A stretch of DNA of 30,940 nucleotides from a virus (lineage: Duplodnaviria > Heunggongvirae > Uroviricota > Caudoviricetes): the IMG/VR virus record IMGVR_UViG_2684622670_000017. One strand, 5' to 3'. Shown here piece by piece: positions 241-24,213 of the stretch. The notes under the pieces are model-generated. The model was given only the letters and a program-made list of their open reading frames with translations, made no database searches and was not told the origin of the DNA. Positions within the stretch are counted from its first letter, which is position 1. Each line of letters begins with the position of its first letter. The position numbers were made by a program, and so were the translations under genes.

Positions 241-1251
241 TCAAACCGTTAAACCTCCCTTTAGCGGGTTTAATGCTACTGCGTTTTGCAGGTAATCAGG
301 TGCAAGGTGCGCGTAGGCCATCGTCTGCTGAATGCTTGCGTGTCCGAGAATCTGTTGCAACGCAATAATATTGCCCCCGTTCATCATGAAATGGCTTGCG
401 AAGGTATGGCGCAGGATATGGGTTGCCTGATTGGGTGGGATATCAGGTTTTACTCTGCGTAAAATTCCACAAAACTTCTCATAATCGACCTTGAACAATT
501 TAGCGCTGGCCTCCTCTTTAACTTTCTTCTCCAGTTCCTCAGAAATCGGCACGGTTCGCTTTTTACCGTTTTTGGTTTTCAGGAAGGTAACCCTACAACT
601 TGTAATCTGTGCTGGTTTTAGCGTGGCAACTTCCGTCCATCTTCCTCCAGTGCTCAGACATAAAAGCGCGACAAGTAAGTCATCACCAGTCAAAACATTT
701 AACAGTTTTTTGATTTCTGCTTTTTCCAGGAACGTCATTTCCGGGTTGGCTTCCGCCAGTGGCGGCAGTCCGTGAATCGGATGTTGCCCGGAAAACTCAT
801 CTAGCTGGATTAGCTTGGTGAACATGCCCGATAAGCGGTACATGTCACGATTTATCGTCGCCGCGCTGATGCCATCGCGTAGACGAGCAGAGCGGTAATC
901 CATCAGGCATTTTTTATTTAACCTGCTGACCTGTATGTCACCCAATCCGCTGATGGTTTTGCGCAAATGCCCTCGCTCTTTTTCTCCGTGTTCGTGATTC
1001 TGGCCGTGATACTTCCACCATGCCTCTAACAGCTCTGACAGGGAGCGGCGGTCTGTTCGCTGGCCTGCCCATTCTTTCTGGCTGGCGTTGGCGATTGTGT
1101 ACCGCTCAAATGCCACCGCCTCAGCTTTTCTTTCAAACTTCCTGCGGATGCGTTTTCCGTCGCGACCGCGAGGTCTAATGTCCACTTCATAGCGACCATC
1201 ATCGAGCTTCTTAATTGACATAAGAAAGCCCTCCGGCGCTGTACTCACCAT
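241..1251 (-). CDS. int: Tyrosine site-specific integrase (P2 Int-like)
   Basis: 336 aa. C-terminal catalytic region has the tyrosine-recombinase pattern (..ATHILRHTFASHF..GHASIQQTMAYAHL..). Position and orientation match P2 int, co-directional with and downstream of C. Confidence 0.93.
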   Translation of the reverse strand: MVSTAPEGFLMSIKKLDDGRYEVDIRPRGRDGKRIRRKFERKAEAVAFERYTIANASQKEWAGQRTDRRSLSELLEAWWKYHGQNHEHGEKERGHLRKTISGLGDIQVSRLNKKCLMDYRSARLRDGISAATINRDMYRLSGMFTKLIQLDEFSGQHPIHGLPPLAEANPEMTFLEKAEIKKLLNVLTGDDLLVALLCLSTGGRWTEVATLKPAQITSCRVTFLKTKNGKKRTVPISEELEKKVKEEASAKLFKVDYEKFCGILRRVKPDIPPNQATHILRHTFASHFMMNGGNIIALQQILGHASIQQTMAYAHLAPDYLQNAVALNPLKGGLTV

Positions 1252-1290
1252 CTTGGTAACAAATGGTGAAAATGTAATGTTTATAGAGAG

Positions 1291-1584
1291 TTAACCAGTC
1301 TGTTTCTCGGAGCGGTCTGATTCTGTTGGTTCTCGCCCAATGTGTGCGAGAGCCGGTGCAATCTGACCAGCTTGCGGAGCTGTTTTATCTGTCATTAGCC
1401 AAAGGGTGTATTTCTGAAACTGAGGGGTGTTTGTGATTTTCATCACCACTCCCAAGCCGGGCTCTGCATGTCCTCCCTCGTAATTTTTTAACGTGCTAAG
1501 TGCTAGGCCGCTGATTTCACAAAACTTTACTTGAGTTAAACCCTCTGCTTTACGTATTGCCTTAATTTTATCGGCTACTTTCAT
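1291..1584 (-). CDS. C: Immunity repressor, P2 C-family (HTH)
   Basis: 97 aa, directly upstream of int on the same strand and divergent from cox. N-terminal HTH-like segment (GLTQVKFCEISGLALSTLKNYEGG); C-terminal segment (PQFQKYTLWLMTD..GQIAPALAH) is as I recall for P2 C-type repressors. Confidence 0.8.
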   Translation of the reverse strand: MKVADKIKAIRKAEGLTQVKFCEISGLALSTLKNYEGGHAEPGLGVVMKITNTPQFQKYTLWLMTDKTAPQAGQIAPALAHIGREPTESDRSEKQTG

Positions 1585-1738
1585 TTGACATGGTTCCTAG
1601 TTAAAGACTATATTGCCGCAAAAGGTCTAAAGGTAAGAACCTTTTGGGGTGCACAAACCAGTCCCTAGTAAGGACAGGAGTGACTTGTAAGGGACTGGAA
1701 CTAACAAGGGTAACACGAAAGCAAAAAGGGGCTAACCA
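1585..1738. promoter_or_regulatory. C/cox genetic switch region: expected divergent Pc/Pe promoters with candidate operator inverted repeats
   Basis: Intergenic region between divergent C and cox. Contains perfect inverted repeats CCAGTCCCT...AGGGACTGG (about 22 bp apart) and AAAAGGT...ACCTTTT. Confidence 0.5.
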
Positions 1739-2011
1739 ATGGGAGTCAATGACTATGTGATTCAGTACCCGCTTGATGCGGTACATACGGTTAAGTTTGC
1801 AGAGTTACTTGGTAAGCCAGAAACGGCGGTAGTCAAGATGGTAAAAGAAAATAAATTGCCAGTTATTGAGCTTCGGGATCCAAGTAAGCCGAACGCTCGT
1901 GTCGGTGAGAAGTGGGTTTTTATTCCAGAGTTTAATCGTGCTGTGCGTGAGGCATTCTACAACCGACCGGTTGAACAGCGCGACGCGTGGCTGCTGTGGA
2001 TGGGGCTTTAA
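1739..2011 (+). CDS. cox: Cox-like excisionase / early-promoter regulator
   Basis: 90 aa (P2 Cox is about 91 aa); first gene of the rightward early operon, divergent from C. Confidence 0.8.
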   Translation: MGVNDYVIQYPLDAVHTVKFAELLGKPETAVVKMVKENKLPVIELRDPSKPNARVGEKWVFIPEFNRAVREAFYNRPVEQRDAWLLWMGL

Positions 2012-2065
2012 ATCATTGCTAAATCAGGCTGTCGGCAACGGGGCGGACGGCATAAGGGGAAAGTC

Positions 2066-2254
2066 ATGGCGAATAAAAATAGTGCGAACCAGTGCGGCAC
2101 AGATAAGGCACTGACGCAGAGAGAAATTTTAGAACTGGCGGTAAAAATCGGGGATTTCATTAAAGAAGAGGCCGGACGCTTAGATAAACAGGTGTCCGGC
2201 AAAGATATCAGCGTTATCGCTGGCGTCATTGATTTTCTGTCTTATGACGAATGA
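2066..2254 (+). CDS. Hypothetical small early protein
   Basis: 62-aa ORF in the early operon after cox; no motif recognised. Confidence 0.4.
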   Translation: MANKNSANQCGTDKALTQREILELAVKIGDFIKEEAGRLDKQVSGKDISVIAGVIDFLSYDE

Positions 2255-2258
2255 TGCA

Positions 2259-2433
2259 TTAACTGGAGGCTAATTTCTCCTCGAGCTTTTTTTCCAATAC
2301 TGGATAAATCGAGTCAAAGAGACGTTGAGTGTGCTTATCCAGCGTAACGTTGGGGTTCATGTGAGGTATGGAGGAGCTGATTACCACGCAAGTTTGCTCA
2401 AAGAGAAATTTTACCTTTTCTTCATTATTCATG
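2259..2433 (-). CDS. Hypothetical small protein encoded antisense to the early operon (internal ATG start chosen)
   Basis: ORF 2259..2516 on the minus strand; an internal Met (MNNEEKVKFLFEQ...) is preceded by AAGGGA about 9 nt upstream. Tentative. Confidence 0.25.
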
Positions 2434-2548
2434 ATTTTTTCCCTTGTGTTATTAACTAATTGCATACATGTGGAGTGTAGCGTTTGGAGCATATCACAAG
2501 ACCATGTGCCGGACATGGCTAAAAACCGGCTCTGTTTCAGGAGGAGTT

Positions 2549-2719
2549 ATGCAGGAACCTCGTTGTATTGCTCAGTTATTGCGTAACGAAAGCCCCAGGG
2601 CGATTGACTTCACCATCACCCATGGGAAGGGGCGCAAAGGCATCATTATTCGCACCAAAAAACAGAGTCCGTTAAAGAAGGCTCTGACCTTTCTGAAAAG
2701 CCGGAGGGTATGGAAATGA
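2549..2719 (+). CDS. Hypothetical small basic early protein (P2 orf78-like by position)
   Basis: 56 aa from the internal Met of ORF 2468..2719 (MQEPRCIAQLL...), preceded by a strong GGAGGAG Shine-Dalgarno; overlaps the start of the next gene. Confidence 0.45.
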   Translation: MQEPRCIAQLLRNESPRAIDFTITHGKGRKGIIIRTKKQSPLKKALTFLKSRRVWK

Positions 2720-3216
2720 CAGTGATGACGCTCAATCTCGTTGAAAAACAACCAGCAACTATGCGCCGGATAATTGGTAAGCATCTTGCCGTCCCTCGCT
2801 GGCAGGAGACATGTGATTATTATAATCAGATGATGGAGCGCGAACGGCTAACGGTTTGCTTCCATGCGCAGTTAAAACAGCGTCATGCAACGATGCGTTT
2901 TGAAGAAATGAACGACGTCGAACGTGAACGGCTGGTTTGTGCAATTGATGAATTGCGTGGGGCATTCTCAAAACGCCGTCAGGTCGGTGCAAGTGAGTAT
3001 GCATATATTAGCTTTTTAACTGTCAGTCAGCGCCGTACTTTATTTATGCACGCACGACTGACAGAAAAAGAATTTAACCAGCCATACTGGCGAATTAATG
3101 AAGAGTCATGTTACTGGCGTGATGCTTTATTCCGTGCATTACGTGAATTATTCAGTCTGTTTGAATATGCACCGACAATTCTGACGTCGGTAAAACCAGA
3201 GCAATATCTGCATTAA
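2710..3216 (+). CDS. Early protein at the position of P2 replication gene B (putative helicase-loader-like)
   Basis: 168 aa (P2 B is about 166 aa), correct position between cox and A. Assigned by synteny and size only. Confidence 0.5.
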   Translation: MEMTVMTLNLVEKQPATMRRIIGKHLAVPRWQETCDYYNQMMERERLTVCFHAQLKQRHATMRFEEMNDVERERLVCAIDELRGAFSKRRQVGASEYAYISFLTVSQRRTLFMHARLTEKEFNQPYWRINEESCYWRDALFRALRELFSLFEYAPTILTSVKPEQYLH

Positions 3217-3279
3217 GTAATTAACCAAAGTTTTTAACGCACTTAATCGTGCGGGGCTTCTTTTTGCCTGGAGAAAGTC

Positions 3280-3504
3280 ATGCATACAGTTTCTGAAAAT
3301 CAGTGCGGTAAATACGCATTAATGCTGCAACAGGCCAGAACCGAAGCACAGGCCGACGCGGCGACGCGCTTTTCTTCTCATCTTGACGCCATGATTCGCC
3401 ACATCACAAAGGCGGAGTTATCCCGCGTGGAGATAGTCGAGCTGCTCAGTCAGGAGTCGGAAAAATTTCACAATATCGGATTGTCTCGCGGGGAGGTACT
3501 TTGA
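3280..3504 (+). CDS. Hypothetical early protein (P2 orf80-like by position)
   Basis: 74-aa ORF in the early operon. Confidence 0.55.
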
Positions 3505-3806
3505 TGCCCTGTTCTCGTTCGGTTGTATTACTGAATAACGCCTTAAAAATCGCCGTTATGAAAAATGGTGATTTGTCTCTTATTCAACTTGGTCTTGATA
3601 AAGAGAAGCGCGAAATAACTGAATCTGTTATCGCGATTTATCAGAGTGAATTAAATCTCCTGTCTGATGTGGTCAATTTACTTGTTAAACGCGCTGTATT
3701 TCATAAGCAAATTTCATCCGTGGATGAACTGACAAAATTAACGACAGAAATCGCCAGCTATTGCGCTGATGAATTTAAGAAACTGAACGACAAAAGGAAC
3801 TGGTAA
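3501..3806 (+). CDS. Hypothetical early protein (P2 orf81-like by position)
   Basis: 101-aa ORF; its start overlaps the upstream stop (ATGA), suggesting translational coupling. Confidence 0.55.
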
Positions 3807-4030
3807 TGCCGGACAACGTAGATTTTATTCAGGAACAACAGGCTGAATTACTGGAGCGCCAGATTAACGCGGCAAGGGTAAAACATTGCGGTGTTTCTTC
3901 GCTGGTTTGCGAAGAGTGTGATGCGCCAATACCTGCTGCCCGTCGTGCGGCTTATCCGTCAGCCACGCGTTGTGTTTCCTGTCAGTCAGTCTTTGAAGCA
4001 AAAAACAAACATTACCGGAGAACGGCATGA
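3806..4030 (+). CDS. TraR/DksA-family C4 zinc-finger protein
   Basis: 74 aa with CxxC...CxxC (CEECDAPIPAARRAAYPSATRCVSC), typical of phage TraR/DksA-like zinc fingers; P2 orf82 position. Confidence 0.75.
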   Translation: MPDNVDFIQEQQAELLERQINAARVKHCGVSSLVCEECDAPIPAARRAAYPSATRCVSCQSVFEAKNKHYRRTA

Positions 4031-4302
4031 GTATTCGTATTGAAATTGGCGAACGTTATGTCGTTACCAGTGACAGCTTTCAGTTTATTCTCCACGAGAA
4101 AAAGAGAGCTGAAAGCGGTAAAAACGCCGGTCAGGAATGGCTGGCGGTGGTTGGTTATTACCCGAAATTAAGCCAGCTCGTTTCCGGCCTGATGCATCAC
4201 GATATTCTGACCGGAAGCGCAAAGTCTTTTGCTGATTTAAACGCGCAGGTTGAGCAACTCAGCAAGCGTTGTTCAGAGGCTTTTGGCTCATATGGCCGTT
4301 AA
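4027..4302 (+). CDS. Hypothetical early protein (P2 orf83-like by position)
   Basis: 91-aa ORF immediately upstream of and overlapping gene A. Confidence 0.5.
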   Translation: MSIRIEIGERYVVTSDSFQFILHEKKRAESGKNAGQEWLAVVGYYPKLSQLVSGLMHHDILTGSAKSFADLNAQVEQLSKRCSEAFGSYGR

Positions 4303-6601
4303 AGCCTCCGGGCGTTTTGTCCCTCCGTCAGCATTTGCTGCAGGCACCGGTAAGACGTTTACCGGTGCTTATGCATGGAACGCGCCACGCGAGGCTGTCG
4401 GGCGCGAAAGACCCCTTACACGTGACGAGATGCGTCAGGTGCAAGGTGTTTTATCCACGATTAACCGCCTGCCTTACTTTTTGCGCTCGCTGTTTACTTC
4501 ACGCTATGACTACATCCGGCGCAATAAAAGCCCGGTGCACGGGTTTTATTTCCTCACATCCACTTTTCAGCGTCGTTTATGGCCGCGCATTGAGCGCGTG
4601 AATCAGCGCCATGAAATGAACACCGACGCGTCGTTGCTGTTTCTGACAGAGCGTGACCACTATGCGCGTCTGCCGGGGATGAATGACAAGGAGCTGAAAA
4701 AGTTTGCCGCCCGTATCTCATCGCAGCTTTTCATGATGTATGGGGAACTCTGCGATGCCTGGGTGGATGCGCATGGCGAAAAAGAATCGCTGTTTACGGA
4801 TGAGGCGCAGGCGCATCTGTATGGTCATGTTGCTGGCGCTGCACGTGCTTTCAATATTTCCCCGCTTTACTGGAAAAAATACCGTAAAGGACAGATGACC
4901 ACGAGGCAGGCATATTCTGCCATTGCCCGTCTGTTTAACGATGAGTGGTGGACTCATCAGCTTAAAGGCCAGCGTATGCGCTGGCATGAGGCGTTATTGA
5001 TAGCTGTCGGGGAGGTCAATAAAGACCGTTCTCCTTATGCCAGTAAACATGCCATTCGTGATGTGCGTGCGCGCCGTCAGGCAAATCTGGAGTTTCTTAA
5101 ATCGTGTGACCTTGAAAACAGGGAAACCGGCGAACGCATCGACCTTATCAGTAAGGTGATGGGCAGTATTTCTAATCCTGAAATTCGCCGGATGGAGCTG
5201 ATGAACACCATTGCCGGTATTGAGCGTTACGCCGCCGCAGAGGGTGATGTGGGGATGTTTATCACGCTGACCGCGCCGTCAAAGTATCACCCGACACGTC
5301 AGGTCGGAAAAGGCGAAAGTAAAACCGTCCAGCTTAATCACGGCTGGAATGATGAGGCATTTAATCCGAAGGATGCGCAGCGTTATCTCTGCCGTATCTG
5401 GAGCCTGATGCGCACGGCATTCAAGGATAATGATTTACAGGTCTACGGTTTGCGAGTCGTCGAGCCACACCACGACGGAACGCCGCACTGGCATATGATG
5501 CTTTTTTGTAATCCACGCCAGCGTAACCAGATTATCGAAATCATGCGTCGCTACGCGCTCAAAGAGGATGGCGACGAAAGAGGAGCTGCGCGAAACCGTT
5601 TTCAGGCAAAACACCTTAACCGGGGCGGTGCTGCGGGATATATCGCGAAATACATTTCAAAAAACATCGACGGCTATGCACTGGATGGTCAGCTCGATAA
5701 CGATACCGGCAGGCAGCTGAAAGACACCGCCGCGGCTGTTACCGCATGGGCGTCAACGTGGCGCATCCCGCAATTTAAAACGGTTGGCCTGCCGACAATG
5801 GGGGCTTACCGTGAACTACGCAAATTGCCTCGCGGCGTCAGTATTGCTGATGAGTTTGACGAACGCGTCGAGGCTGCACGCGCTGCCGCAGACAGTGGTG
5901 ATTTTGCGTTGTATATCAGCGCGCAGGGTGGGGCAAATGTTCCGCGCGATTGTCAGACTGTCAGGGTTGCCCGTAGTCCGTCGGATGAAGTTAACGAGTA
6001 CGAGGAAGAAGTCGAGAGAGTGGTCGGCATTTACGCGCCGCATCTCGGCGCGCGTCATATTCATATCACCAGAACGACGGACTGGCGCATTGTTCCGAAA
6101 GTGCCGGTCGTTGAGCCTTTGACTTTAAAAAGCGGCATCGCCGCGCCTCGGAGTCCTGTCAATAACTGTGGAAAGCTCACCAGTGGTGATACTTCGTTAC
6201 CGGCTCCCACACCTTCTGAACACGCCGCAGCAGTGCTTAATCTGGTTGATGACGGTGTTATCGAATGGAATGACCCGGAGGTCGTGAGGGCGCTCAGGGG
6301 CGCATTAAAACACGACCTGATAACACCAAACCGTCAGCAAAGAAACGGAAGCCCGTTAAAACCGCATGAAATAGCACCATCGGCCAGACTGACCAGGTCG
6401 GAACGAATGCAAATTACCCGTATCCGCGTTGACCTTGCTCAGAACGGTATCAGGCCGCAGCGATGGGAGCTTGAGGCGCTGGCGCGTGGCGCGATCGTAA
6501 ATTATGACGGGAAACAATTTACGTATCCGGTTGCTGATGAGTGGCCGGGATTTTTACAAACAGAAATTGTTTTTGGGATTAATAAGTTATCTCTAAGCTA
6601 A
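4292..6601 (+). CDS. A: Rolling-circle replication initiator endonuclease (P2 gpA)
   Basis: Large ORF with HUH-type metal-binding motif (TPHWHMMLF) and paired active-site tyrosines (GYIAKYISKN). Start set at the internal MAVKASGRF Met in frame with ORF 4250..6601; size matches P2 A (about 760 aa). Confidence 0.9.
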   Translation: MAVKASGRFVPPSAFAAGTGKTFTGAYAWNAPREAVGRERPLTRDEMRQVQGVLSTINRLPYFLRSLFTSRYDYIRRNKSPVHGFYFLTSTFQRRLWPRIERVNQRHEMNTDASLLFLTERDHYARLPGMNDKELKKFAARISSQLFMMYGELCDAWVDAHGEKESLFTDEAQAHLYGHVAGAARAFNISPLYWKKYRKGQMTTRQAYSAIARLFNDEWWTHQLKGQRMRWHEALLIAVGEVNKDRSPYASKHAIRDVRARRQANLEFLKSCDLENRETGERIDLISKVMGSISNPEIRRMELMNTIAGIERYAAAEGDVGMFITLTAPSKYHPTRQVGKGESKTVQLNHGWNDEAFNPKDAQRYLCRIWSLMRTAFKDNDLQVYGLRVVEPHHDGTPHWHMMLFCNPRQRNQIIEIMRRYALKEDGDERGAARNRFQAKHLNRGGAAGYIAKYISKNIDGYALDGQLDNDTGRQLKDTAAAVTAWASTWRIPQFKTVGLPTMGAYRELRKLPRGVSIADEFDERVEAARAAADSGDFALYISAQGGANVPRDCQTVRVARSPSDEVNEYEEEVERVVGIYAPHLGARHIHITRTTDWRIVPKVPVVEPLTLKSGIAAPRSPVNNCGKLTSGDTSLPAPTPSEHAAAVLNLVDDGVIEWNDPEVVRALRGALKHDLITPNRQQRNGSPLKPHEIAPSARLTRSERMQITRIRVDLAQNGIRPQRWELEALARGAIVNYDGKQFTYPVADEWPGFLQTEIVFGINKLSLS

Positions 6602-6723
6602 GACGCTCAAAGCAAGAGATTATTTTACTGTACGTAGCCATCTGGAATTGTGGCTGTGTTAAAACGCTCGAGATTTTTTGGATATCCAGTTATACTCCGC
6701 TTAGAAATCATTCGGAGACTAAG
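6602..6723 (+). promoter_or_regulatory. Putative promoter / 5' leader of the methyltransferase gene
   Basis: AT-rich intergenic region with a TATACT -10-like hexamer and an inverted repeat CTCCG..(13 nt)..CGGAG overlapping the GGAG ribosome-binding site before the 6724 ATG. Confidence 0.3.
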
Positions 6724-7770
6724 ATGGCGGTAAAAGTTGTTGATCTTTTTTGCGGTGCTGGCGGTTTAACGCACGGCTTACATTTGGCCGGATTGGACGT
6801 TGTCGCAGGCATTGATTTAGAAGGTGAGTGTCGTGTTGCATACGAAAGCAATAATGATGCACTTTTTATTGAAAAAGATATATCTCTGGTGACAAAAGAT
6901 GAAATCGAAAATCTTTTTGAAGGGGCAAGTGTTAAAGTATTGGCTGGATGTGCACCTTGTCAGCCATTTTCTAAATATACTCAGGGAAAAGATAAAAAAA
7001 ATGATAAAAAGTGGCCGTTATTATATGAGTTTGAACGTTTAATAAAAGACACGAAACCAGAAATAGTTACAATGGAAAACGTTCCTGATGTGACAAAACA
7101 TTCTGTCTATGATGATTTTTATAATACCTTAATAGCATTGGGTTATTATGTTTGGGCAAATAAGATTGAATGTGTAGATTTTGAGGTTCCGCAAAACAGA
7201 GTGAGGCATGTATTACTCGCATCTAAATTTGCGCCGATTTCTCTGATGAAACCACAAACATCGGTAAAGCTGACAGTTAGGGATTGCATTGGTAATTTAC
7301 CTTCGATTGAAGCGGGACAAGCAGATCCAAAAGACCCTCTCCATAAGGCGAGTAGATTGAGTGAAATTAATCTCAAACGTATTCTACATTCAAAACCGGG
7401 GGGGACATGGAGGGATTGGCCTGCTGAATTAATCGCTTCATGTCATGCCAAGAAAAGTGGGCAGGGATATGCCAGTGTTTATGGTCGTATGTCTTGGGAT
7501 AAACCGAGTCCAACGATAACTACACTTTGTTATGGTTTTGGTAATGGACGTTTTGGTCATCCCGAGCAGCATCGTGCAATCTCACTTAGGGAAGCAGCAT
7601 TACTTCAAACGTTTCCTGTTACATATTCATTTACCCAACCGGGCGAGCCGATCAAAATGAAAAATGTCGGGCGTATGATAGGTAATGCTGTTCCTGTAAA
7701 CTTAGGTAAAGCGATTGGTCTTTCAATAGTACATCATTTGAAAGAGTTTCACCCCGCCGCTCTTAAATAA
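6724..7770 (+). CDS. DNA (cytosine-5)-methyltransferase
   Basis: 348 aa with the canonical C5-MTase motifs: I DLFCGAGG (AdoMet binding), IV GCAPCQPFS (catalytic Cys; nt about 6955..6963), VI TMENVPD, VIII QNRVRHVLL, and C-terminal IGNAVPV. AT-rich codon usage unlike the phage backbone. Confidence 0.92.
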   Translation: MAVKVVDLFCGAGGLTHGLHLAGLDVVAGIDLEGECRVAYESNNDALFIEKDISLVTKDEIENLFEGASVKVLAGCAPCQPFSKYTQGKDKKNDKKWPLLYEFERLIKDTKPEIVTMENVPDVTKHSVYDDFYNTLIALGYYVWANKIECVDFEVPQNRVRHVLLASKFAPISLMKPQTSVKLTVRDCIGNLPSIEAGQADPKDPLHKASRLSEINLKRILHSKPGGTWRDWPAELIASCHAKKSGQGYASVYGRMSWDKPSPTITTLCYGFGNGRFGHPEQHRAISLREAALLQTFPVTYSFTQPGEPIKMKNVGRMIGNAVPVNLGKAIGLSIVHHLKEFHPAALK

Positions 7771-8468
7771 GCCTGAGTATCAAGATAAGTTTGTATATTT
7801 TCAAGGATGCAGTTGAGATAATGAAAAACTTCATCCTTCATTTCTGTTAGTGTATCAATAGATGTATCTCTGCCTTTGTTTCTAAATGATTCAGAACCAT
7901 GAGCAAGGTCGTTTCTGGCCTTTTTTATTGGAAGTAAATTGCAACCATTTCGCGTTATTTCTGAATCTGTATCTGCTGAGAAGCCATATTTTTCAGCGAC
8001 TTCTCTAATTTTTCTAGCATCAACATTTCCAGAAAATAACGGATTTTTATTTGATTGGATAAGTTTTTTGTGAGCGTTTAGCCACTCTTTAAATATAACT
8101 TTTGCAATGTTCCCTTGTGAGAAATCTATTTTCCCATTTGGTGATTGTAAACTATGAAATGCTACTCTTGTAAGGTTTTCATTTACAGTGTCTGCACATA
8201 ATGATTCATTAGACATTAAAACATTATGAATGTCTTCTATTGCATTGGAAATGGTTGCTTCAATGAGATTGTACAATATAATAAATGCATTAGCCTTTAA
8301 AATATGAGTCATATCAATATCAATGGGTTGTTGTATAGGCGCATCGCTTGTATTATCTTTATAGACTAGAGATGGTTTTTTGTTTATTAGTAACTGAATG
8401 AATGAGAAGTATTCATTAATATCTTGCATTCTTTCTTGGAAAAGAATTTTACTTGTCATCTCCTCCAT
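7749..8468 (-). CDS. HEPN-like protein with Rx4HG motif (putative nuclease effector; resembles the MAE_28990/Swt1-like HEPN group)
   Basis: 239 aa. Conserved-looking ARNDLAHGSESF near the C-terminus (R185..H190, nt about 7899..7917) fits the HEPN Rx4-6H signature. Second gene of a minus-strand operon, 10 nt after the DUF262 gene; AT-rich. Confidence 0.6.
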   Translation of the reverse strand: MEEMTSKILFQERMQDINEYFSFIQLLINKKPSLVYKDNTSDAPIQQPIDIDMTHILKANAFIILYNLIEATISNAIEDIHNVLMSNESLCADTVNENLTRVAFHSLQSPNGKIDFSQGNIAKVIFKEWLNAHKKLIQSNKNPLFSGNVDARKIREVAEKYGFSADTDSEITRNGCNLLPIKKARNDLAHGSESFRNKGRDTSIDTLTEMKDEVFHYLNCILENIQTYLDTQAYLRAAG

Positions 8469-8478
8469 TTACTTGGCC

Positions 8479-9624
8479 TCACTCCATATTTTCATCTTCA
8501 TCTTCATCTTCGTCGACAATATTTTCTGGAATGTCTTTCCCAAGCAACTTGTTTTTTACATATTCAATGCGTGCTTTAACTTTGGGTTTAGAGTTGCTGG
8601 CATCTGAACGTGTGTGCGTGATAAACTCTTTCGAGTTGATCCAGTCATCAATATTTTTAGGAACTAAATTGGGTTCTTCCTCCAGTGCTAATGTTGCACC
8701 GACGGCAAGAGCTTCGAAACGAATCCTAGGAACAGTGGTGGCGTTTTTCACCTTTCTGAAACCATTTGGGAAATGTGTATTAATGAATTGGCACATTTTA
8801 TGAAATTTTTCCGCCAGCATAGCTGCGTTTTCATCTGTATATTCGGCATTTTTACGTTTTAAATAGGTTGTAAGAAATTCATCAACGCTTTTTCTGAAAT
8901 CAAGATATTCTTCAGTGTAGGCAAAGTAGCGTAGTGCCAATTCTGGATATTCAGAGCGACGTTTTCTTGCATCTCCCAAAGGACAGATGCTATGAAATAG
9001 AGGATCTTCGGAAATTTCATTGATAAATGCAAGGAATGGCCCATCATGGCTACCTTGCCGTTGTTCCATTGTTGTTAGTTTTTTTCCGCCAGTATTCAGA
9101 CGGTCAAAAATTTCCCTTCTTGTCTCTTCGTCACAATGTTCTGTAAGTTCAATCATTCGAATAGTTTTTCTATCAAAACGTAGGCGACGGGGAGTACTGA
9201 AATCAGAATATTTAAAACCATTGGCTGTGACTAATTTCTGCAGGCCTTCAAGAGTTAGTTTGTTATTGGTAAATTGGTGTAGGGTTCTTATTCGTTGGCT
9301 ACCGTCAACAATTTCAAGTCTACCTTCATTTTCACCTGAACCAATATCGGCAACGAATATGTAAGGTATAGGAAGATTTAAAAGCAGAGATTCAATGAAA
9401 CGGGATTTTTGCTTGTTGTTCCAGATAAACTCCCTTTGGTAGTCAGGTATAAAAAGCTCTGCCTCATCTTCTTCAAGACCATTCTGAAATTTGTCCACAA
9501 TAACACTTATCGGGAACTCACGTATTTCATGGTCAGTGATTTTTTGCATTTCAACTATGCTTTGATCTAAAAGCTCCTTTTCTTCTTTAGTTTTTGGGGT
9601 ATGTTCTGCTTTTTTTCTCGCCAT
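8479..9624 (-). CDS. DUF262 (ParB/Srx-like, GmrS-type) domain protein
   Basis: 381 aa. N-terminal DUF262 signatures FIPDYQREFIW and EIVDGSQRIRTL (DGQQR-type). No HNH/DUF1524 His-Me motif seen in the C-terminal half. Ends in an acidic tail DEDEDEDENME. Confidence 0.8.
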   Translation of the reverse strand: MARKKAEHTPKTKEEKELLDQSIVEMQKITDHEIREFPISVIVDKFQNGLEEDEAELFIPDYQREFIWNNKQKSRFIESLLLNLPIPYIFVADIGSGENEGRLEIVDGSQRIRTLHQFTNNKLTLEGLQKLVTANGFKYSDFSTPRRLRFDRKTIRMIELTEHCDEETRREIFDRLNTGGKKLTTMEQRQGSHDGPFLAFINEISEDPLFHSICPLGDARKRRSEYPELALRYFAYTEEYLDFRKSVDEFLTTYLKRKNAEYTDENAAMLAEKFHKMCQFINTHFPNGFRKVKNATTVPRIRFEALAVGATLALEEEPNLVPKNIDDWINSKEFITHTRSDASNSKPKVKARIEYVKNKLLGKDIPENIVDEDEDEDENME

Positions 9625-9763
9625 GAGCTTATTATCCTACTATGCGTGTGATTGCATTAAATTGCATGTTAAACAAAAGCATAATCTATATCAGTCAATC
9701 AGCCAGTGGCAAGGTGTTGTGATTACAATGCAACTGCATTAGAACCGACTCATGAAGCGGGCG

Positions 9764-9782
9764 GGCGAGGCGGGGAAAGCAC
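9764..9782. other. cos: cos site: 19-nt P2-type cohesive end
   Basis: Exact sequence GGCGAGGCGGGGAAAGCAC, which I recall as the P2 cohesive end; it lies just upstream of the portal/terminase genes, as expected. Confidence 0.8.
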
Positions 9783-9950
9783 TGCGCGCTGGCGGTGGTG
9801 CTGATTTTATTTTTTCAGCGTCTGAGCGCGTCGTGATGGCGTTTAGATTGTTCGCCGGGGCGTTGGTGTGTCTGCGGGATGTTTTGTGCGGTGGTGAGCG
9901 TGTGAGGGCGTGATGGCGGGTTGTAAAAAGCCGCCCGTAGGCGGCGATGT

Positions 9951-10985
9951 TCAGCCGTTGTCAGTGTCCAGTGAGTAGTTTTTAAAGCGGATGACCTCCT
10001 GACCGAGCCAGCCGTTTATCTCGCGGATCCTGTCCTGTAGCGGGATAAGCTCATTGCGGACAAAGACCTTTGCCACTTTCTCAATATCACCCAGCGACCC
10101 GACGTTCTCCGGCTTGCCGCCCATCAACTGAAAGGGGATGCGGTGCGCGTCCAGCAGGTCAGCGGCGCTGGCTTTTTTGATATTAAAAAAATCGTCCTTC
10201 GTTGCCACTTCACTGAGCGGGATAATTTTAATGCCGTCGGCTTTCCCCTGTGGGGCATAGAGAAACAGGTTTTTAAAGTTGTTGCGGCCTTTCGACTTGA
10301 CCATGTTTTCGCGGAGCATTTCGATATCGTTGCGATCCTGCACGGCATCAGTGACGTACATGATGTATCCGGCATGTGCGCCATTTTCGTAATACTTGCG
10401 GCGGAACAGCGTGGCCGACTCATTCAGCCAGGCAGAGTTAAGGGCGCTGAGATATTCCGGCAGGCCGTACAGCTCCTGATTAATATCCGGCTCCAGCAGG
10501 TGAAACACGGAGCCGGGCGCGAAGGCTGTCGGCTCGTTGAAGGACGGCACCCACCAGTAAACATCCTCCTCCACGCCACGACGGGTATATTTGGCCGGTG
10601 AGGTTTCCAGTCTGATGACCTTACCGGTGGTGCTGTAACGCTTTTCCAGAAACGCATTACCGAACACCAGAAAATCCAGCACAAAGCGGCTGAAATCCTG
10701 CTGGGAAAGCCACGGGTGCGGGATAAACGTTGAAGCCAGAATATTACGTTTGACGTAAATCGGTGAGCTGTGATGCACGGCAGCACGCAGACTTTTTGCC
10801 AGACCGGTAAAGCTGACCGGTGGCTCATACCATCTGCCGTTACTGATGCACTCGACGTAATCCAGAATGTCACGGCGGTCGAGTACCGGCACCGGCTCAC
10901 CAAAGGTGAATGCCTCCATTTTCGGGGCGCTGGCGGTCATTTTTTTTGCCGCAGGTTGCGGTGTTTTCCCTTTTTTCTTGCTCAT
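9951..10985 (-). CDS. Q: Portal protein (P2 gpQ)
   Basis: 344 aa (same as P2 Q), adjacent to cos and the large terminase, minus strand as in P2. Confidence 0.92.
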   Translation of the reverse strand: MSKKKGKTPQPAAKKMTASAPKMEAFTFGEPVPVLDRRDILDYVECISNGRWYEPPVSFTGLAKSLRAAVHHSSPIYVKRNILASTFIPHPWLSQQDFSRFVLDFLVFGNAFLEKRYSTTGKVIRLETSPAKYTRRGVEEDVYWWVPSFNEPTAFAPGSVFHLLEPDINQELYGLPEYLSALNSAWLNESATLFRRKYYENGAHAGYIMYVTDAVQDRNDIEMLRENMVKSKGRNNFKNLFLYAPQGKADGIKIIPLSEVATKDDFFNIKKASAADLLDAHRIPFQLMGGKPENVGSLGDIEKVAKVFVRNELIPLQDRIREINGWLGQEVIRFKNYSLDTDNG

Positions 10986-12757
10986 CAGTAAAACTCCAGA
11001 ATGGTGGATGTCAGCGGGGTGCTGATACCGGCGGTGAGTGGCTCATTTAACAGGGCATGCATGGTCGCCCAGGCGAGGTCGGCGTGGCTGGCTTCCTCGC
11101 TGCGGCTGGCCTCATAGGTGGCGCTGCGTCCGCTGCTGGTCATGGTCTTGCGGATAGCCATGAACGAGCTGGTGATGTCGGTGGCGCTGACGTCATATTC
11201 CAGACAGCCACGGCGGATAACGTCTTTTGCCTTGAGCACCATTGCGGTTTTCATTTCCGGCGTGTAGCGGATATCGCGCGCGGCAGGATAGAACGAGCGC
11301 ACGAGCTGGAACACGCCGACACCGAGGCCGGTGGCATCAATACCGATGTATTCGACGTTGTATTTTTCGGTGAGTTTGCGGATGGATTCAGCCTGAGTGG
11401 CAAAGTCCATGCCTTTCCACTGGTGACGCTCAAGTATTCTGAATTTGCCACCGGCCACCACCGGCGGTGCCAGCACCACGCATCCGGCGCTGTCGCCACG
11501 GTGTGACGGGTCGTAACCAATCCATACCGGGCGGGAACCGAACGGATTTGCGGCAAAGGGTGCATAGTCTTCCCATTCTTCCAGCGTGTCGACCATGCAG
11601 CGTTGCAGCTCCTCGAACGGGAACACCGACGCCTTGTCGTCAACAAATTCACACATGAACAGGTTTTTAAAATCGTCGGCGCTGTTTTCGCGTTTAAGCT
11701 GCTCAATGTCGAACAGCGTGCAGCCACCTTTCAGGGCGTCCTCAATGGTGACAATCTGCCGCCACTGGCCGTCCGCACAGAGAAGCCCACCGGCAAGGGC
11801 GTTATGACTGACGTCGATTTCCACGCGTTCGGCGGCGCTGGCGCGCCCCCGGTTAAACAGTTCACCCGACCAGAACGGGTAGGCGTCGTGCGCCAGCGTG
11901 GACGGGGTGGAGAAATAGGTCGAGCGCAGGTGACTCTGTGAGGCCATACCTGATGCCACCTTACGCAGTACCTGAAAATTCGGGATCCAGAAAATCTCGT
12001 CGACGTACAGGTCGCCGTTATGGCTCTGTGCGGTGTTGGAGTTGGTGCCGAGAAAAATCAGTTTTGCGCCGTTATTGCCAAGGACAATCGGGTCACCGGT
12101 CAGGTCAACGTCAACCAGCCGGGCAAAGGCGATGATGTATTCACGGAACACATACGCCTGCGTTTTACTGGCCGACAGAAAAATCTGGTTATGGCCGGTT
12201 TTCAGGGCGCGCAGCAGCGCCTCGCGGGAAAAATAAAACGTCGCGCCAATCTGGCGGGATTTCAGGATATCGCGGATGCGGTGCTCAAGCCCGGCGCGAT
12301 ACCAGTGCAACTGATAGTCGAAAGACTGCTCAAAGAAAATCTGCTCCAGCTTTTCGATGGCCTCGTCACTGAAAAAATTCTTTTTCGGTTTGCGACGCCC
12401 GCCTTTGTTGCGGTTAGCGACGTTCGGATTAAGGTCTGCTTCGTTGCCGGTCTGACTGTAGCGGTTTACCCGTGCCAGTCGTTCAATCTGGCGTCCGAGC
12501 AGGTCAATTTCCTTGAAGTCACCGCCGGTTTTCTGCGGTTTGATGATGAGCTGGGTCAGCCGCGCTTCCAGACTCATTTCGACACGGCTGATGGGGGCAA
12601 CGCTGTCCCAGCCGTCGCGCTGTTTCCAGCTCTGCACCGTCGGGCGTTTCATCTGCAACATGGCGGCAATCTGCGGCACGGAAAACCCCTGCCAGTACAG
12701 CAGCGCCGCCTGACGACGCGGGTCGTGTAAAAGAGTGGTGTCTGTGGTGATGGTCAT
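10985..12757 (-). CDS. P: Terminase large subunit, ATPase (P2 gpP)
   Basis: About 590 aa from the internal Met MTITTDTTLL; position and length match P2 P; co-oriented with Q. Confidence 0.92.
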   Translation of the reverse strand: MTITTDTTLLHDPRRQAALLYWQGFSVPQIAAMLQMKRPTVQSWKQRDGWDSVAPISRVEMSLEARLTQLIIKPQKTGGDFKEIDLLGRQIERLARVNRYSQTGNEADLNPNVANRNKGGRRKPKKNFFSDEAIEKLEQIFFEQSFDYQLHWYRAGLEHRIRDILKSRQIGATFYFSREALLRALKTGHNQIFLSASKTQAYVFREYIIAFARLVDVDLTGDPIVLGNNGAKLIFLGTNSNTAQSHNGDLYVDEIFWIPNFQVLRKVASGMASQSHLRSTYFSTPSTLAHDAYPFWSGELFNRGRASAAERVEIDVSHNALAGGLLCADGQWRQIVTIEDALKGGCTLFDIEQLKRENSADDFKNLFMCEFVDDKASVFPFEELQRCMVDTLEEWEDYAPFAANPFGSRPVWIGYDPSHRGDSAGCVVLAPPVVAGGKFRILERHQWKGMDFATQAESIRKLTEKYNVEYIGIDATGLGVGVFQLVRSFYPAARDIRYTPEMKTAMVLKAKDVIRRGCLEYDVSATDITSSFMAIRKTMTSSGRSATYEASRSEEASHADLAWATMHALLNEPLTAGISTPLTSTILEFY

Positions 12758-12930
12758 GAATACCTCGCCGTGATGAATACACGGCAAGGCTACTGAGTCG
12801 CGCCCCGCGATTCGCTAAGGTGCTGTTGTGTCAGTGATAAGCCATCCGGGACTGATGGCGGAGGATGCGCATCGTCAGGAAACTGATGCCGACATGTGAC
12901 TCCTCTAATCACTATTCAGGACTCCTGACA
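12758..12930. promoter_or_regulatory. Divergent late promoter region (P2 PP / PO equivalent)
   Basis: Intergenic region between divergent P and O operons, where P2 has Ogr-dependent late promoters. Exact -10 and activator sites not resolved by eye. Confidence 0.5.
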
Positions 12931-21623: not shown

Positions 21624-23630
21624 ATGAGCACAAAATTCAAAACCGTTATCACCACTGCCGGTGCAGCAAAGCTGGCAGCGGCAACCGCGCCGGGAGGGCG
21701 GAAGGTCAACATTACCACGATGGCCGTCGGGGATGGTGGTGGTAAATTGCCTGTCCCGGATGCCGGACAGACAAAACTTGTTAATGAGGTCTGGCGACAT
21801 GCCCTGAATAAAATCAGTCAGGACAATCGACACAGTAATTATATTATCGCAGAGCTGGTCATCCCGCCGGAGGTGGGCGGTTTCTGGATGCGTGAACTTG
21901 GTCTGTACGATGATACCGGTGCGTTAATTGCCGTGGCGAACATGGCCGAAAGTTATAAGCCTGCCCTTGCCGAAGGCTCAGGACGTTCGCAGACCTGCCG
22001 CATGGTCATTATCGTCAGCAGTGTGGCCTCAGTGGATCTGACCATCGACACCACAACGGTGATGGCGACGCAGGATTACGTTGATGACAAAATTGCAGAG
22101 CACGAACAGTCACGACGCCATCCGGACGCCTCACTGACTGCAAAAGGTTTTACTCAGTTAAGCAGCGCGACCAATAGTGAATCTGAAACGCTGGCCGCAA
22201 CGCCGAAGGCGGTTAAGGCAGCGTATGACCTTGCTAACGGAAAATATACCGCTCAGGACGCCAGCACGGGGCGAAAAGGTCTTGTTCAGCTAAGTAGTGC
22301 CATCAACAGCGAATCTGAGACGCTCGCAGCAACGCCAAAGGCGGTTAAGACAGCATATGACCTTGCTAATGGCAAATACACTGCACAGGACGCCACCACG
22401 GCACGAAAAGGGATTGTTCAGTTAAGCAGCGCCACTAACAGTGACTCTGAAACGCTTGCGGCAACGCCGAAAGCGGTGAAAGCTGCGAATGACAATGCGA
22501 ATGGGCGGGTGCCTTCTGTCCGCAAGGTGAATGGTAAGGCACTTTCAGAGGATATAACACTGACGCCGAAGGATATCGGTACGCTTAACTCAACAACTAT
22601 GTCATTCATCGGTGGTGCTGGTTGGTTCAAATTAGCAACGGTAACCATGCCACAGGAGAGTTCTGTTGTTTCAATTACGTTGATTGGTGGCGCTGGATAT
22701 AACGTCGGTTCACCTCAACAGGCAGGTATATCTGAACTTGTTTTGCGTGCAGGTAATGGTAATCCGAAGGGGATTACTGGTGCTTTATGGCAGCGCACAT
22801 CGACAGGGTTTACAAATTTTGCCTGGGTCAATACATCTGGTGATACTTACGATATTTACGTTGCAATCGGAAATTATGCGACTGGTGTAAATATTCAATG
22901 GGATTATACCAGTAATGCCAGCGTGACGATTCATACGTCACCAGCATATTCTGCTAATAAGCCGGAAGGGTTAACGGACGGTACAGTTTATTCACTCTAT
23001 ACGCCATCAGAGCAGTTTTATCCGCCTGGCGCACCAATCCCGTGGCCATCAGATACCGTTCCGTCTGGCTATGCCCTGATGCAGGGGCAGACTTTTGACA
23101 AATCTGCATACCCGAAACTTGCAGCGGCTTATCCGTCTGGCGTTATTCCTGATATGCGTGGCTGGACGATTAAGGGCAAACCCGCCAGTGGTCGCGCCGT
23201 ATTATCACAGGAACAGGACGGAATTAAATCACATACCCACAGTGCCAGTGCATCCAGTACGGATTTAGGGACGAAAACAACCAGTTCGTTTGATTACGGG
23301 ACAAAAACGGTCAGCACGTTTAACCACGGCACAAAAACGACAAACAATACGGGAGCGCATACACACACTGTCGGTGGTCGTTACGGTGGTGACTCCATCG
23401 GGGGTAAACAACGCGTACAGGTATCAGGAACCAACCAGGTGTCAAGCTCTGCGGGAGCACACGCCCATACAGTCGACATTGGTCAGCATAATCACACGGT
23501 TGGCATTGGTGCTCACAGCCATTCCATTGCGATTGGCGCGCATAGTCATACCGTCACTGTAAGTGCCACAGGTAATTCAGAGAACACCGTCAAAAACGTT
23601 GCGTATAACTATATTGTGAGGCTGGCATAA
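21624..23630 (+). CDS. H: Tail fiber protein H
   Basis: 668 aa (P2 H is about 669 aa). Internal tandem fibre repeats and a His-rich C-terminus with HxH motifs (AHTHTV, AHAHTV, QHNHTV, AHSHSI, AHSHTV) typical of tail-fibre receptor-binding tips. Confidence 0.9.
22143..22505 (+). repeat. Three tandem in-frame repeats of about 132 bp (about 44 aa) within H (phage tail-fibre repeat)
   Basis: Repeated peptide [35 protein letters not shown] occurs three times with minor substitutions (aa about 174..294). Confidence 0.75.
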
Positions 23631-24208: not shown

Positions 24209-24213
24209 ACACA

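What the first reader, a model, noticed from the sequence alone, without database searches (positions are those of the whole stretch)
6602..9763. Compositional island replacing P2 orf91/tin/old
By eye the cassette is AT-rich (long A/T runs, AAA/AAT/GAT-heavy codons) whereas flanking A, Q and P are GC-rich. Because cos lies immediately after the cassette and A immediately before it, the cassette sits exactly where P2 carries its old and tin exclusion genes. This points to horizontal acquisition by cassette exchange at a conserved insertion point.
Basis: partly seen in the sequence, partly recalled or inferred. Interest (0 to 1): 0.5.

Follow-up and report, generated by a model that had tools for sequence, protein, structure and literature searches.

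The report
Defence cassette in P2 prophage hotspot
The AT-rich 3.2-kb block is a swapped-in three-gene cassette (a cytosine DNA methylase, a ParB-like DUF262 sensor and a HEPN nuclease) sitting in the already well-described variable 'defence hotspot' of P2-like prophages, where phage P2 itself carries tin and old.

Summary
Window 6602-9763 has 37.5% G+C against 53.7% for the rest of the prophage, and GC3 of 0.24-0.31 against 0.54-0.71. Homology to P2 stops at 6552, inside the last 16 codons of gene A, and resumes at 9723-9735, about 30 nt before the cos cut at 9763/9764. P2's orf91, tin and old are absent.

The block encodes three genes:
- an intact C5-cytosine methyltransferase (6724-7770, +);
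- a ParB-DUF262 NTPase-type protein (8479-9624, -);
- a MAE_28990-family HEPN nuclease (7749-8468, -).

The same trio sits at the same site in every P2-like element I found. Two E. coli alleles differ at saturated synonymous sites while their backbones differ by dS of about 0.1, which indicates cassette exchange.

This is known. The gpA-gpQ hotspot was described by Rousset 2022 and Vassallo 2022, Rousset's Table S5 lists this exact architecture, and Anantharaman 2013 noted the gene neighbourhood. The closest tested system is PD-T4-2 (DUF262 + HEPN, anti-T4). The trio itself appears untested.

The most likely function is a methylation-linked, R-M-like anti-phage module. One side observation: a G7 tract in the methylase reads G6, G7 or G8 among near-identical copies.

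The parts
4292..6601 (+). P2 replication gene A (left flank). The last 16 codons (6553-6601) are AT-rich non-P2 sequence, giving a chimeric C-terminus ...EWPGF|LQTEIVFGINKLSLS where P2 has ...EWPGF|STVMEWT.
   Evidence: Pfam Phage_GPA E 7e-124. RefSeq annotation of identical prophages. Homology to P2 ends at 6552. C-termini compared.
6553..9734 (.). The exchanged segment: the AT-rich cassette replacing P2 orf91-tin-old.
   Evidence: Breakpoints. G+C 0.375 against 0.537. No flanking direct or inverted repeats, so not a transposon-type insertion.
6602..6723 (+). A-MTase intergenic region. Positions 6553-6656 are a lineage-specific junction filler. From about 6655 onward the sequence is conserved with all other alleles of the cassette. 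There is a promoter-like match at 6668-6696 (TCGAGA-17-TATACT).
   Evidence: Cassette homology starts at 6654-6657 in L002, L003, L007 and L008. The filler matches only P24B2. The promoter scan gave no more hits than chance, so this is a position-only hint.
6724..7770 (+). C5-cytosine DNA methyltransferase, 348 aa, with motifs I FCGAGG, IV PCQ, VI ENV, VIII QNRVR and X GNAVP intact.
   Evidence: PF00145 E 1.8e-54. PADLOC DrmMII 1.9e-89 and MTase_II 5e-84. TIGR00675. The region between motifs VIII and X is the most conserved part across 34 orthologues.
7398..7404 (+). G7 homopolymer inside the MTase (codons CCG GGG GGG, the invariant Pro-Gly-Gly). Its length is 6, 7 or 8 among near-identical copies.
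7749..8468 (-). HEPN nuclease of the MAE_28990 family, 239 aa, with invariant R185-N-D-L-A-H190 (Rx4H). Its 3' end overlaps the MTase 3' end by 22 nt (convergent genes).
8479..9624 (-). ParB-DUF262 protein, 381 aa: an N-terminal DUF262 NTPase-type domain with motifs QRxxxW (63-68), DGSQR (107-111) and FDRLN (173-177), plus a helical C-terminal half. It lies 10 nt upstream of HEPN, so the two are presumably one operon.
   Evidence: PF03235 E 4.7e-28. PADLOC NsnA 4.9e-55 (residues 31-358) and PD-T4-2_A 9.2e-35. Alignment A2. No nuclease domain detected.
9625..9763 (-). Upstream region of the DUF262-HEPN operon, with a promoter-like match at 9712-9683. This is the same place as the P2 old-tin promoter region. 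P2-type sequence resumes at 9723-9735.
9764..9782 (+). cos cohesive-end sequence ggcgaggcggggaaagcac (right boundary).
9951..10985 (-). Portal gene Q (right flank).
   Evidence: PF04860. 96.9% nucleotide identity to P2.

Best explanation
Window 6553-9734 is one of the interchangeable cargo cassettes of the gpA-cos-gpQ hotspot of P2-like prophages. It was acquired by recombination through the conserved flanks, with breakpoints in the 3' end of A and just left of cos.

The cargo is a three-gene, restriction-modification-like anti-phage module expressed from the lysogen. The proposed mechanism has three parts:
1. The C5-methyltransferase writes a fixed 5mC mark on host and prophage DNA.
2. The ParB-DUF262 protein, an NTPase-type DNA sensor with a DNA-binding C-terminal half and no nuclease domain, reads the modification state of DNA.
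3. That sensor controls the co-transcribed MAE_28990 HEPN nuclease, which is the effector. Whether it acts as an RNase causing growth arrest or cleaves nucleic acid directly is unknown.

What is shown: the position, the breakpoints, the composition, intact catalytic motifs, conserved synteny, co-divergence and purifying selection.

What is inferred: the anti-phage role, the sensor-to-effector order, and the direction of the methylation logic. Either an unmethylated site marks non-self, or, as for SspE, the self mark is needed to license the sensor.

My confidence is about 0.9 for 'exchangeable hotspot cargo with defence-type genes' and about 0.5 for the methylation-gated sensor/effector mechanism. 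The overall figure blends the two.
For: Hotspot and exchange. Flanks are shared with 88 phage records that hold unrelated inserts. Breakpoints are at 6552 and 9723-9735. There are no terminal repeats. A second, deeply diverged allele sits at the same site: cassette pS is 0.71-0.83 against backbone dS of about 0.1. [quoted passage not shown]

One functional unit.
- DUF262 followed by HEPN on the same strand occurs in 78 of 79 species-level loci.
- The orthologous MTase is immediately adjacent in 33 of 79 genomic loci, spanning Proteobacteria, Cyanobacteria, Bacteroidota and Acidobacteria, and in 16 of 16 viral contigs.
- MTase-linked and MTase-less pairs form separate clades with few losses.
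- Pairwise distances of MTase and DUF262 correlate at r = 0.93.
- Non-synonymous change is strongly constrained: pN is 0.15-0.25 at saturated pS.

R-M-like logic. The same MTase family is elsewhere paired with other NTPase 'R' modules: GHKL/MORC-like ATPases (once with Vsr), SNF2/ResIII helicases and a NERD-UvrD helicase. Seven of those loci are also P2 hotspots. The MTase region between motifs VIII and X is its most conserved part, which implies one shared target.

Precedents.
- DUF262 domains act as modification sensors driving a nuclease in GmrSD, BrxU and SspE (PMC10952713, PMC12065111).
- PD-T4-2 (DUF262 + a HEPN of the RiboL-PSP/MAE_28990 type) protects E. coli from T4, both cloned and in its native strain (PMC9519451).
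Against: - I found no experiment on this trio in the searchable library.
- 45 of 79 genomic loci carry DUF262-HEPN with no MTase nearby, flanked by housekeeping genes. PD-T4-2 also works without a methylase. The pair can therefore stand alone.
- Two near-identical copies have a frameshifted MTase (G6 in E. coli 2015C-4136CT1, G8 in phage P24B2) while DUF262 and HEPN stay intact. If real, the pair does not kill unmethylated self, which argues against simple type II logic.
- The MTase is on the opposite strand and may have its own promoter. It may also be read through from the early lytic operon.
- The HEPN protein matches no PADLOC model, including PD-T4-2_B.
- The DUF262 structural model is only moderate (pLDDT 75), and its PDB matches to ParB, Noc and BrxU are not significant.
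- The correlation of distances partly reflects shared host phylogeny.
Confidence: 0.6

Rival explanations
1. There are two independent cargos. DUF262-HEPN is a self-sufficient PD-T4-2-like or type IV-like system that senses modified phage DNA (for example hmC or glucosyl-hmC) or another infection cue. The C5-MTase is a separate phage gene, either anti-restriction self-methylation of progeny DNA or epigenetic lysogenic conversion, that merely shares the hotspot.
For: - MTase-less pairs are common in chromosomes (45 of 79 loci).
- PD-T4-2 defends without a methylase.
- MTase frameshift variants coexist with an intact pair.
- The MTase is convergently transcribed and lies directly downstream of the early operon gene A.
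- The same MTase family occurs without the pair in 40 of 80 viral contigs.
Against: - The orthologous MTase stays glued to the pair across several phyla, in two fixed arrangements, and in 16 of 16 viral contigs.
- It co-diverges with DUF262 (r = 0.93).
- MTase presence follows clades rather than being scattered.
- Where the pair is absent, the MTase has another NTPase/nuclease-type partner rather than standing alone. This is the pattern of an M subunit with alternative R modules.
Confidence: 0.27
2. The cassette is chiefly an addiction (post-segregational killing) module that stabilises the prophage or the cassette itself. A long-lived DUF262-HEPN toxin would be held in check by continuing methylation, and any phage exclusion would be incidental.
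For: Many R-M systems behave as selfish addiction modules (general knowledge). HEPN proteins are toxins in HEPN-MNT toxin-antitoxin systems, which are the top structural matches. The module is compact and horizontally mobile, and it is AT-rich in every host.
Against: The apparent MTase-OFF variants and the MTase-less clade would be lethal under this model. The hotspot is strongly enriched for tested anti-phage systems (PMC9122126, PMC9519451). The nearest tested relative is an anti-phage system.
Confidence: 0.08
3. The low G+C is not a horizontal-transfer signature. It would be local mutational or selective drift of ancestral P2 sequence, or a chance fluctuation.
For: The cassette is AT-rich relative to its surroundings in almost every host, so composition reflects the cassette's own constraints rather than a particular donor.
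Against: There is no sequence homology to P2 orf91, tin or old. The gene families are unrelated. Only 7 of 5,426 complete E. coli genomes carry it. Sister phages with 95-97% identical flanks hold other genes. The composition deviates by z of about -4.6.
Confidence: 0.02

Closest known systems
P2 'hotspot 1' / TO (tin-old) variable locus between gpA and gpQ next to cos (Odegrip 2006; Rousset et al. 2022, PMC9122126; Vassallo et al. 2022, PMC9519451)
   Same: Identical position, size (about 3.2 kb, which is the published mean) and behaviour. Conserved flanks hold unrelated cargo. [quoted passage not shown]
   Different: No difference in kind. In this lineage the left breakpoint lies inside gene A and orf91 is lost, whereas the diverged allele keeps orf91 and a small ORF.
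PD-T4-2 (E. coli ECOR65; Vassallo et al. 2022)
   Same: A two-gene core: a DUF262 protein followed by a HEPN protein whose best HHpred matches are HEPN_RiboL-PSP and HEPN_MAE_28990. The window's DUF262 protein matches the PADLOC PD-T4-2_A model (E 9.2e-35).
   Different: PD-T4-2 is about 1.5 kb with a HEPN of about 165 aa and no methylase. Here the HEPN is 239 aa and matches no PADLOC model, including PD-T4-2_B. The DUF262 protein scores higher against NsnA, and a cognate C5-MTase is attached.
Menshen (NsnA-NsnB-NsnC; Millman 2022; Li et al. 2025, PMC12065111)
   Same: The DUF262 protein matches the NsnA profile almost end to end (E 4.9e-55, residues 31-358) and has the three NsnA motifs QRxxxW, DGxQR and FxxxN.
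   Different: There is no NsnB ATPase and no NsnC effector. The partner is a HEPN protein, and a methylase is present.
GmrSD / BrxU type IV restriction enzymes and SspABCD-SspE
   Same: A DUF262 NTPase-type sensor of DNA modification is coupled to a nuclease. SspE is the precedent for a DUF262 reader working alongside a self-modification system.
   Different: There is no DUF1524/HNH nuclease domain. The effector is a separate HEPN protein, and the modification enzyme is a C5-MTase rather than a phosphorothioation system.
MAE_28990 HEPN gene neighbourhood (Anantharaman et al. 2013, PMC3710099, Table 1)
   Same: [quoted passage not shown]
   Different: That paper is purely comparative. It assumed the ParB protein to be a DNase, but no nuclease motif was identified in the protein here.

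Membership tests
P2 gpA-gpQ defence hotspot cargo | Lies between replication gene A and portal gene Q, directly next to cos. | tested here: met
   A ends at 6601, cos is 9764-9782 and Q is 9951-10985.
P2 gpA-gpQ defence hotspot cargo | Flanks are conserved while the content differs between related phages. | tested here: met
   88 phage records share the flanks at 95-97% identity and only P24B2 shares the insert.
PD-T4-2 | A DUF262 protein with an adjacent HEPN protein, co-directional. | tested here: met
   Genes at 8479-9624 and 7749-8468, both on the minus strand with a 10-nt gap.
PD-T4-2 | Both proteins match the PADLOC PD-T4-2 A and B models. | tested here: not met
   The A model matches at E 9.2e-35 but scores below NsnA. 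The B model gives no hit even at E <= 10.
PD-T4-2 | Protects against T4. | not testable with these tools
   Needs plaque assays.
Menshen (NsnABC) | An NsnA-like ParB-DUF262 + ParBDB protein. | tested here: met
   PADLOC NsnA E 4.9e-55 over residues 31-358, and the motifs are present.
Menshen (NsnABC) | An NsnB ATPase and an NsnC effector immediately downstream. | tested here: not met
   Only a HEPN gene follows, and there is no further ORF of 60 aa or more with such domains.
GmrSD/BrxU type IV restriction | DUF262 fused or paired with a DUF1524 (His-Me/HNH) nuclease. | tested here: not met
   Pfam finds only GmrSD_N at residues 52-190. The C-terminal half is helical. The BrxU fold match is not significant (E 0.078).
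Classical type II R-M | A C5-MTase with a complete catalytic motif set. | tested here: met
   PF00145 E 1.8e-54 over profile positions 2-323 of 324. Motifs I, IV, VI, VIII and X are visible in the translation.
Classical type II R-M | A recognisable restriction endonuclease partner (PD-(D/E)xK, HNH, GIY-YIG or PLD). | tested here: not met
   No such domain appears in either partner. There is only a weak REase_II PADLOC hit (E 8.7e-07) over the DUF262 region.
HEPN superfamily (MAE_28990 family) | The Rx4-6H motif and the HEPN helical fold. | tested here: met
HEPN superfamily (MAE_28990 family) | Ribonuclease activity. | not testable with these tools
   Needs biochemistry.
SspABCD-SspE-type 'self-mark plus DUF262 reader' systems | Modification genes linked to a DUF262 sensor whose activity depends on the mark. 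| tested here: inconclusive
   The linkage of MTase and DUF262 is strong. Dependence on the mark cannot be computed.
Phase-variable methyltransferase (phasevarion-type switch) | A homopolymer tract in the ORF whose length differs between isolates and shifts the frame. | tested here: inconclusive
   G6, G7 and G8 occur among five copies at 99.8% identity or more. There are no other indels within the cassette, and its other homopolymers of 6 nt or more do not vary. Homopolymer sequencing error is not excluded.

The most novel reading that the evidence does not exclude
The trio would be a new class of epigenetic immunity. In this reading a ParB/DUF262 NTPase reads the 5mC mark written by its dedicated methylase and licenses a HEPN RNase. 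That amounts to a restriction-modification system whose 'restriction' arm is an RNA-cleaving, abortive effector rather than a DNase. The methylase in this E. coli lineage would additionally carry a slippery G-tract (G6/G7/G8) that switches the whole system on and off.
Probability: 0.2. Interest if true: 0.6.

Novelty: already known. Interest (0 to 1): 0.27.

Why it matters
The finding as stated re-discovers from raw sequence a well-documented rule: P2-like prophages swap anti-phage cargo at the A-cos-Q locus. That is a useful sanity check of the scan, not a discovery.

The residual value lies in the cargo. The DUF262 + MAE_28990-HEPN + C5-MTase trio is widespread, occurring in several bacterial phyla, in P2-like phages and in other viruses. 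It is under strong constraint and apparently untested. The present comparison makes three points that sharpen a testable hypothesis:
- Its methylase family is a shared 'M' module with interchangeable NTPase partners.
- A methylase-less clade of the pair exists.
- The E. coli allele may be phase-variable.

The hypothesis is that DNA-methylation state gates a HEPN effector.

Tried and rejected
- PADLOC and NCBIfam gave nothing for the HEPN protein, even at E <= 10. NCBIfam gave nothing for DUF262.
- PDB sequence searches found no relative of DUF262 or HEPN.
- The promoter and terminator scan found no more sites than shuffled sequence. The two promoter-like sites I cite are positional hints only.
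- A repeat search found no terminal direct or inverted repeats, so a transposon, IS or integron-type insertion is rejected.
- The 104-nt junction filler (6553-6656) matches nothing but P24B2 in the phage collection.
- I rejected filing the cassette as Menshen, GmrSD or PD-T4-2 proper because defining partners or models are missing (see the membership test).
- I considered that MTase-less loci might hide another methylase. Their neighbours are ClpB, aconitase B, an ABC1 kinase, acetyl-CoA synthetase and similar genes.
- The Odegrip 2006 paper (PMC1367236) is not held, so it is cited only through Rousset and Vassallo.
- The MTase target sequence could not be inferred. PDB matches to DNMT1, M.HaeIII and M.HhaI are too distant.
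Full report
**1. The observation**

A sliding-window profile shows a sharp trough in G+C. It falls from about 0.55 at 6001-6500 to 0.30-0.43 across 6501-9750, then returns to 0.56 at 9751-10250.

None of the 429 other windows of the same length falls below 0.455 (mean 0.542, sd 0.037).

Third-position G+C of the three genes inside is 0.24-0.31. For A, Q, P and N it is 0.54-0.71. The compositional island is real and far outside the prophage's own range.

**2. The setting**

The window is a P2-like prophage. The identified genes are:
- integrase (241-1251, -), C repressor (1291-1584, -) and Cox (1739-2011, +);
- replication protein A (4292-6601, +);
- portal Q (9951-10985, -) and terminase P (10985-12787, -);
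- tail fibre H, tail fibre assembly G, sheath FI and D.

The 19-nt P2 cohesive-end sequence is at 9764-9782. The linear genome record of Peduovirus P24B2, which carries the same cassette, ends exactly at window 9763.

In P2 itself the interval between A and cosR holds orf91, tin and old. Against P2, homology stops at window 6552 and resumes at 9735. Against other P2-like prophages it resumes at 9723.

The left breakpoint lies inside A. The last 16 codons are AT-rich foreign sequence, so the protein ends ...EWPGFLQTEIVFGINKLSLS where P2 has ...EWPGFSTVMEWT. No direct or inverted repeats flank the segment. It is therefore not a transposon-type insertion, and exchange through the homologous flanks fits best.

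**3. Evidence for cassette exchange**

The flanks alone match 88 phage records at about 95-97% identity. Their inserts differ: a Fic/VbhT protein, DUF4209, DUF4238, retron Ec48 or orf91 only. Only P24B2 shares this insert, at 99.3%.

Only 7 of 5,426 complete E. coli genomes contain the cassette. Three hold it at 99.8% identity or more, and four hold an allele at about 75% identity. In all seven it lies between A and the portal gene. The diverged allele follows orf91 and a small ORF.

The same placement is found in P2-like prophages of Kluyvera and Buttiauxella and in 6 P2-like IMG/VR contigs.

Between the window and the diverged E. coli allele, synonymous sites of the three cassette genes are saturated (pS 0.71-0.83). 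A and Q of the same two prophages differ by dS of about 0.10-0.12. The two alleles are therefore far older than their backbones and were acquired separately.

One caveat applies. The cassette is poorer in G+C than its surroundings in nearly every host examined, including cyanobacteria. The composition is therefore a property of the module, not a pointer to a donor.

**4. What the cassette encodes**

*The methyltransferase.* Gene 6724-7770 (+) is a 348-aa C5-cytosine methyltransferase (PF00145, E 1.8e-54; PADLOC DrmMII/MTase_II). All catalytic motifs are present.

*The DUF262 protein.* Gene 8479-9624 (-) is a 381-aa DUF262 (GmrSD_N) protein. It matches the Menshen NsnA model almost end to end (E 4.9e-55) and the PD-T4-2_A model more weakly (E 9.2e-35). 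The QRxxxW, DGSQR and FDRLN motifs are invariant in 16 homologues from several phyla, with a mean column identity of 66%. No nuclease domain is detectable, and the C-terminal half is helical. Li et al. 2025 interpret the equivalent half of NsnA as a DNA-binding 'ParBDB' domain.

The MTase and HEPN genes converge and overlap by 22 nt.

**5. Are the three genes one system?**

A scan of one genome per species with the HEPN alignment gave 79 loci.
- DUF262 directly precedes HEPN in 78 of them.
- The orthologous MTase (49-89% identity) is immediately adjacent in 33.
- It is convergent downstream in 29 loci and co-directional upstream in 4.

All 16 viral contigs carrying the HEPN have the full trio.

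On a DUF262 tree the MTase-linked loci and the MTase-less loci fall into separate clades, with only a few losses. The MTase-less loci are mostly cyanobacterial and lie between housekeeping genes. MTase and DUF262 pairwise distances correlate at r = 0.93, though shared host phylogeny contributes to that figure.

The reciprocal test is informative. Of 80 viral contigs carrying this MTase family (48-72% identity), 40 have the pair. In the other 40, all ten MTase neighbours I scanned (from nine contigs) were NTPase- or nuclease-type proteins:
- GHKL/MORC-like ATPases, once together with Vsr;
- SNF2/ResIII helicases;
- a NERD-UvrD helicase.

Seven of these loci are also P2 hotspots. The MTase thus behaves as a common modification subunit with interchangeable 'restriction' modules. 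Its region between motifs VIII and X is its most conserved part, which suggests a single shared target.

**6. Mechanism**

The best-supported reading is a methylation-linked, R-M-like defence.
- The MTase marks self DNA.
- The DUF262 NTPase-type protein reads DNA modification state, as DUF262 does in GmrSD, BrxU and SspE.
- The HEPN nuclease is the effector.

The closest tested system, PD-T4-2, has a DUF262 protein plus a HEPN of the same clade. It protects E. coli from T4 both when cloned and in its native strain.

Three observations count against a simple type II logic:
- The pair exists without any methylase in a whole clade.
- PD-T4-2 needs no methylase.
- Two near-identical copies of this very cassette have a frameshifted MTase with the pair intact.

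These facts fit either an SspE-like logic, in which the self mark is needed to license the sensor so that MTase-off means system-off, or the rival view that the pair and the MTase are independent. I weight the linked model at about 0.5-0.6 and the independent model at about 0.27. Nothing in the accessible literature reports a test of the trio.

**7. Comparison with what is known, and novelty**

The gpA-gpQ hotspot is published. Rousset et al. 2022 counted 1,650 gene arrangements in 18,150 E. coli loci with a mean size of 3.2 kb, and proposed recombination at cos. Vassallo et al. 2022 found several new systems at this position.

[quoted passage not shown] It is not among the systems they tested.

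Anantharaman et al. [quoted passage not shown]

The cassette is not Menshen, because it has no NsnB or NsnC. It is not GmrSD, because it has no DUF1524. By PADLOC models it is not PD-T4-2 proper, because the B component does not match.

The finding is therefore already known as a phenomenon and as an architecture. Only the mechanism of the cargo remains open.

**8. Side observation**

The MTase contains a G7 run at 7398-7404 (CCG GGG GGG, encoding the invariant Pro-Gly-Gly). Five copies of the cassette differ by only 4-5 substitutions, yet the run length varies:
- G6 in E. coli 2015C-4136CT1, where RefSeq marks the gene as frameshifted;
- G7 in the window and two other genomes;
- G8 in phage P24B2, where the gene is annotated as truncated.

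There are no other indels within the cassette in any of these copies. The one other indel in the aligned spans of 6.8-14 kb is an extra A at 9924, shared by three genomes. Those spans hold 15-31 homopolymers of 6 nt or more.

Orthologues in other taxa use mixed codons and have no such run.

This is either homopolymer sequencing error or genuine slipped-strand switching of the methylase. It deserves a read-level check because it bears directly on the mechanism.

**9. Verdict**

The phenomenon is already known, so interest is low to moderate (0.27). What interest there is comes from the untested trio and the possible phase-variable methylase.

Noticed in passing
window 7398-7404 (inside the MTase gene 6724-7770): The G7 homopolymer reads G6, G7 or G8 among five near-identical copies of the cassette. 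G6 and G8 frameshift the methylase while DUF262 and HEPN stay intact. It is the only indel site within the cassette, and orthologues elsewhere lack the run. This could be phase variation or homopolymer sequencing error.
   Followed up: partly
window 6553-6601: The 3' end of replication gene A is chimeric. The last 16 codons are AT-rich non-P2 sequence, giving a new C-terminal tail 8 aa longer than P2's. The recombination breakpoint therefore lies inside an essential gene.
   Followed up: partly
window 24209-24337: The second P2 variable locus (the Z/fun position between tail-fibre assembly gene G, 23630-24208, and sheath gene FI, 24338-25528) is empty here. It is only a 129-nt gap.
   Followed up: partly
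window 1251-4250 and 22500-24250: Two milder G+C dips (0.43-0.49) occur over the early-region small genes and over the 3' part of tail-fibre gene H plus G. These are probably the usual mosaic segments of P2-like phages.
   Followed up: no
L114, L115, L128, L129, L131, L134, L144, L164, L170 (IMG/VR contigs; MTase at about 5001-6040): The same C5-MTase family (48-60% identity) is paired with GHKL/MORC-like ATPases, SNF2/ResIII helicases or a NERD-UvrD helicase instead of DUF262-HEPN. One locus also has Vsr. Seven such MTase-only loci (L131, L137-L140, L144, L145) are P2-like, judged by A, P and Q hits on the contig. The neighbour was identified as a GHKL-type ATPase in the two I scanned (L131, L144).
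   Followed up: partly
L010-L076 (for example L010 5895-7669 and L061 5889-7651): A cyanobacterial clade of DUF262-HEPN pairs has no methylase. The pairs are inserted as two-gene units between housekeeping genes such as ClpB, aconitase B, an ABC1 kinase and acetyl-CoA synthetase. Many Microcoleus copies have a shortened DUF262 ORF of about 190 aa.
   Followed up: partly
L096-L105 (IMG/VR contigs): Ten viral contigs that are not P2-like (no matches to A, Q or P) also carry the complete trio, in both gene arrangements. The module therefore travels on other virus types too.
   Followed up: no
window 9924: There is a one-base difference in an A run just upstream of the tQ terminator hairpin (9930-9945). 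Three E. coli prophages carry one more A than the window.
   Followed up: no
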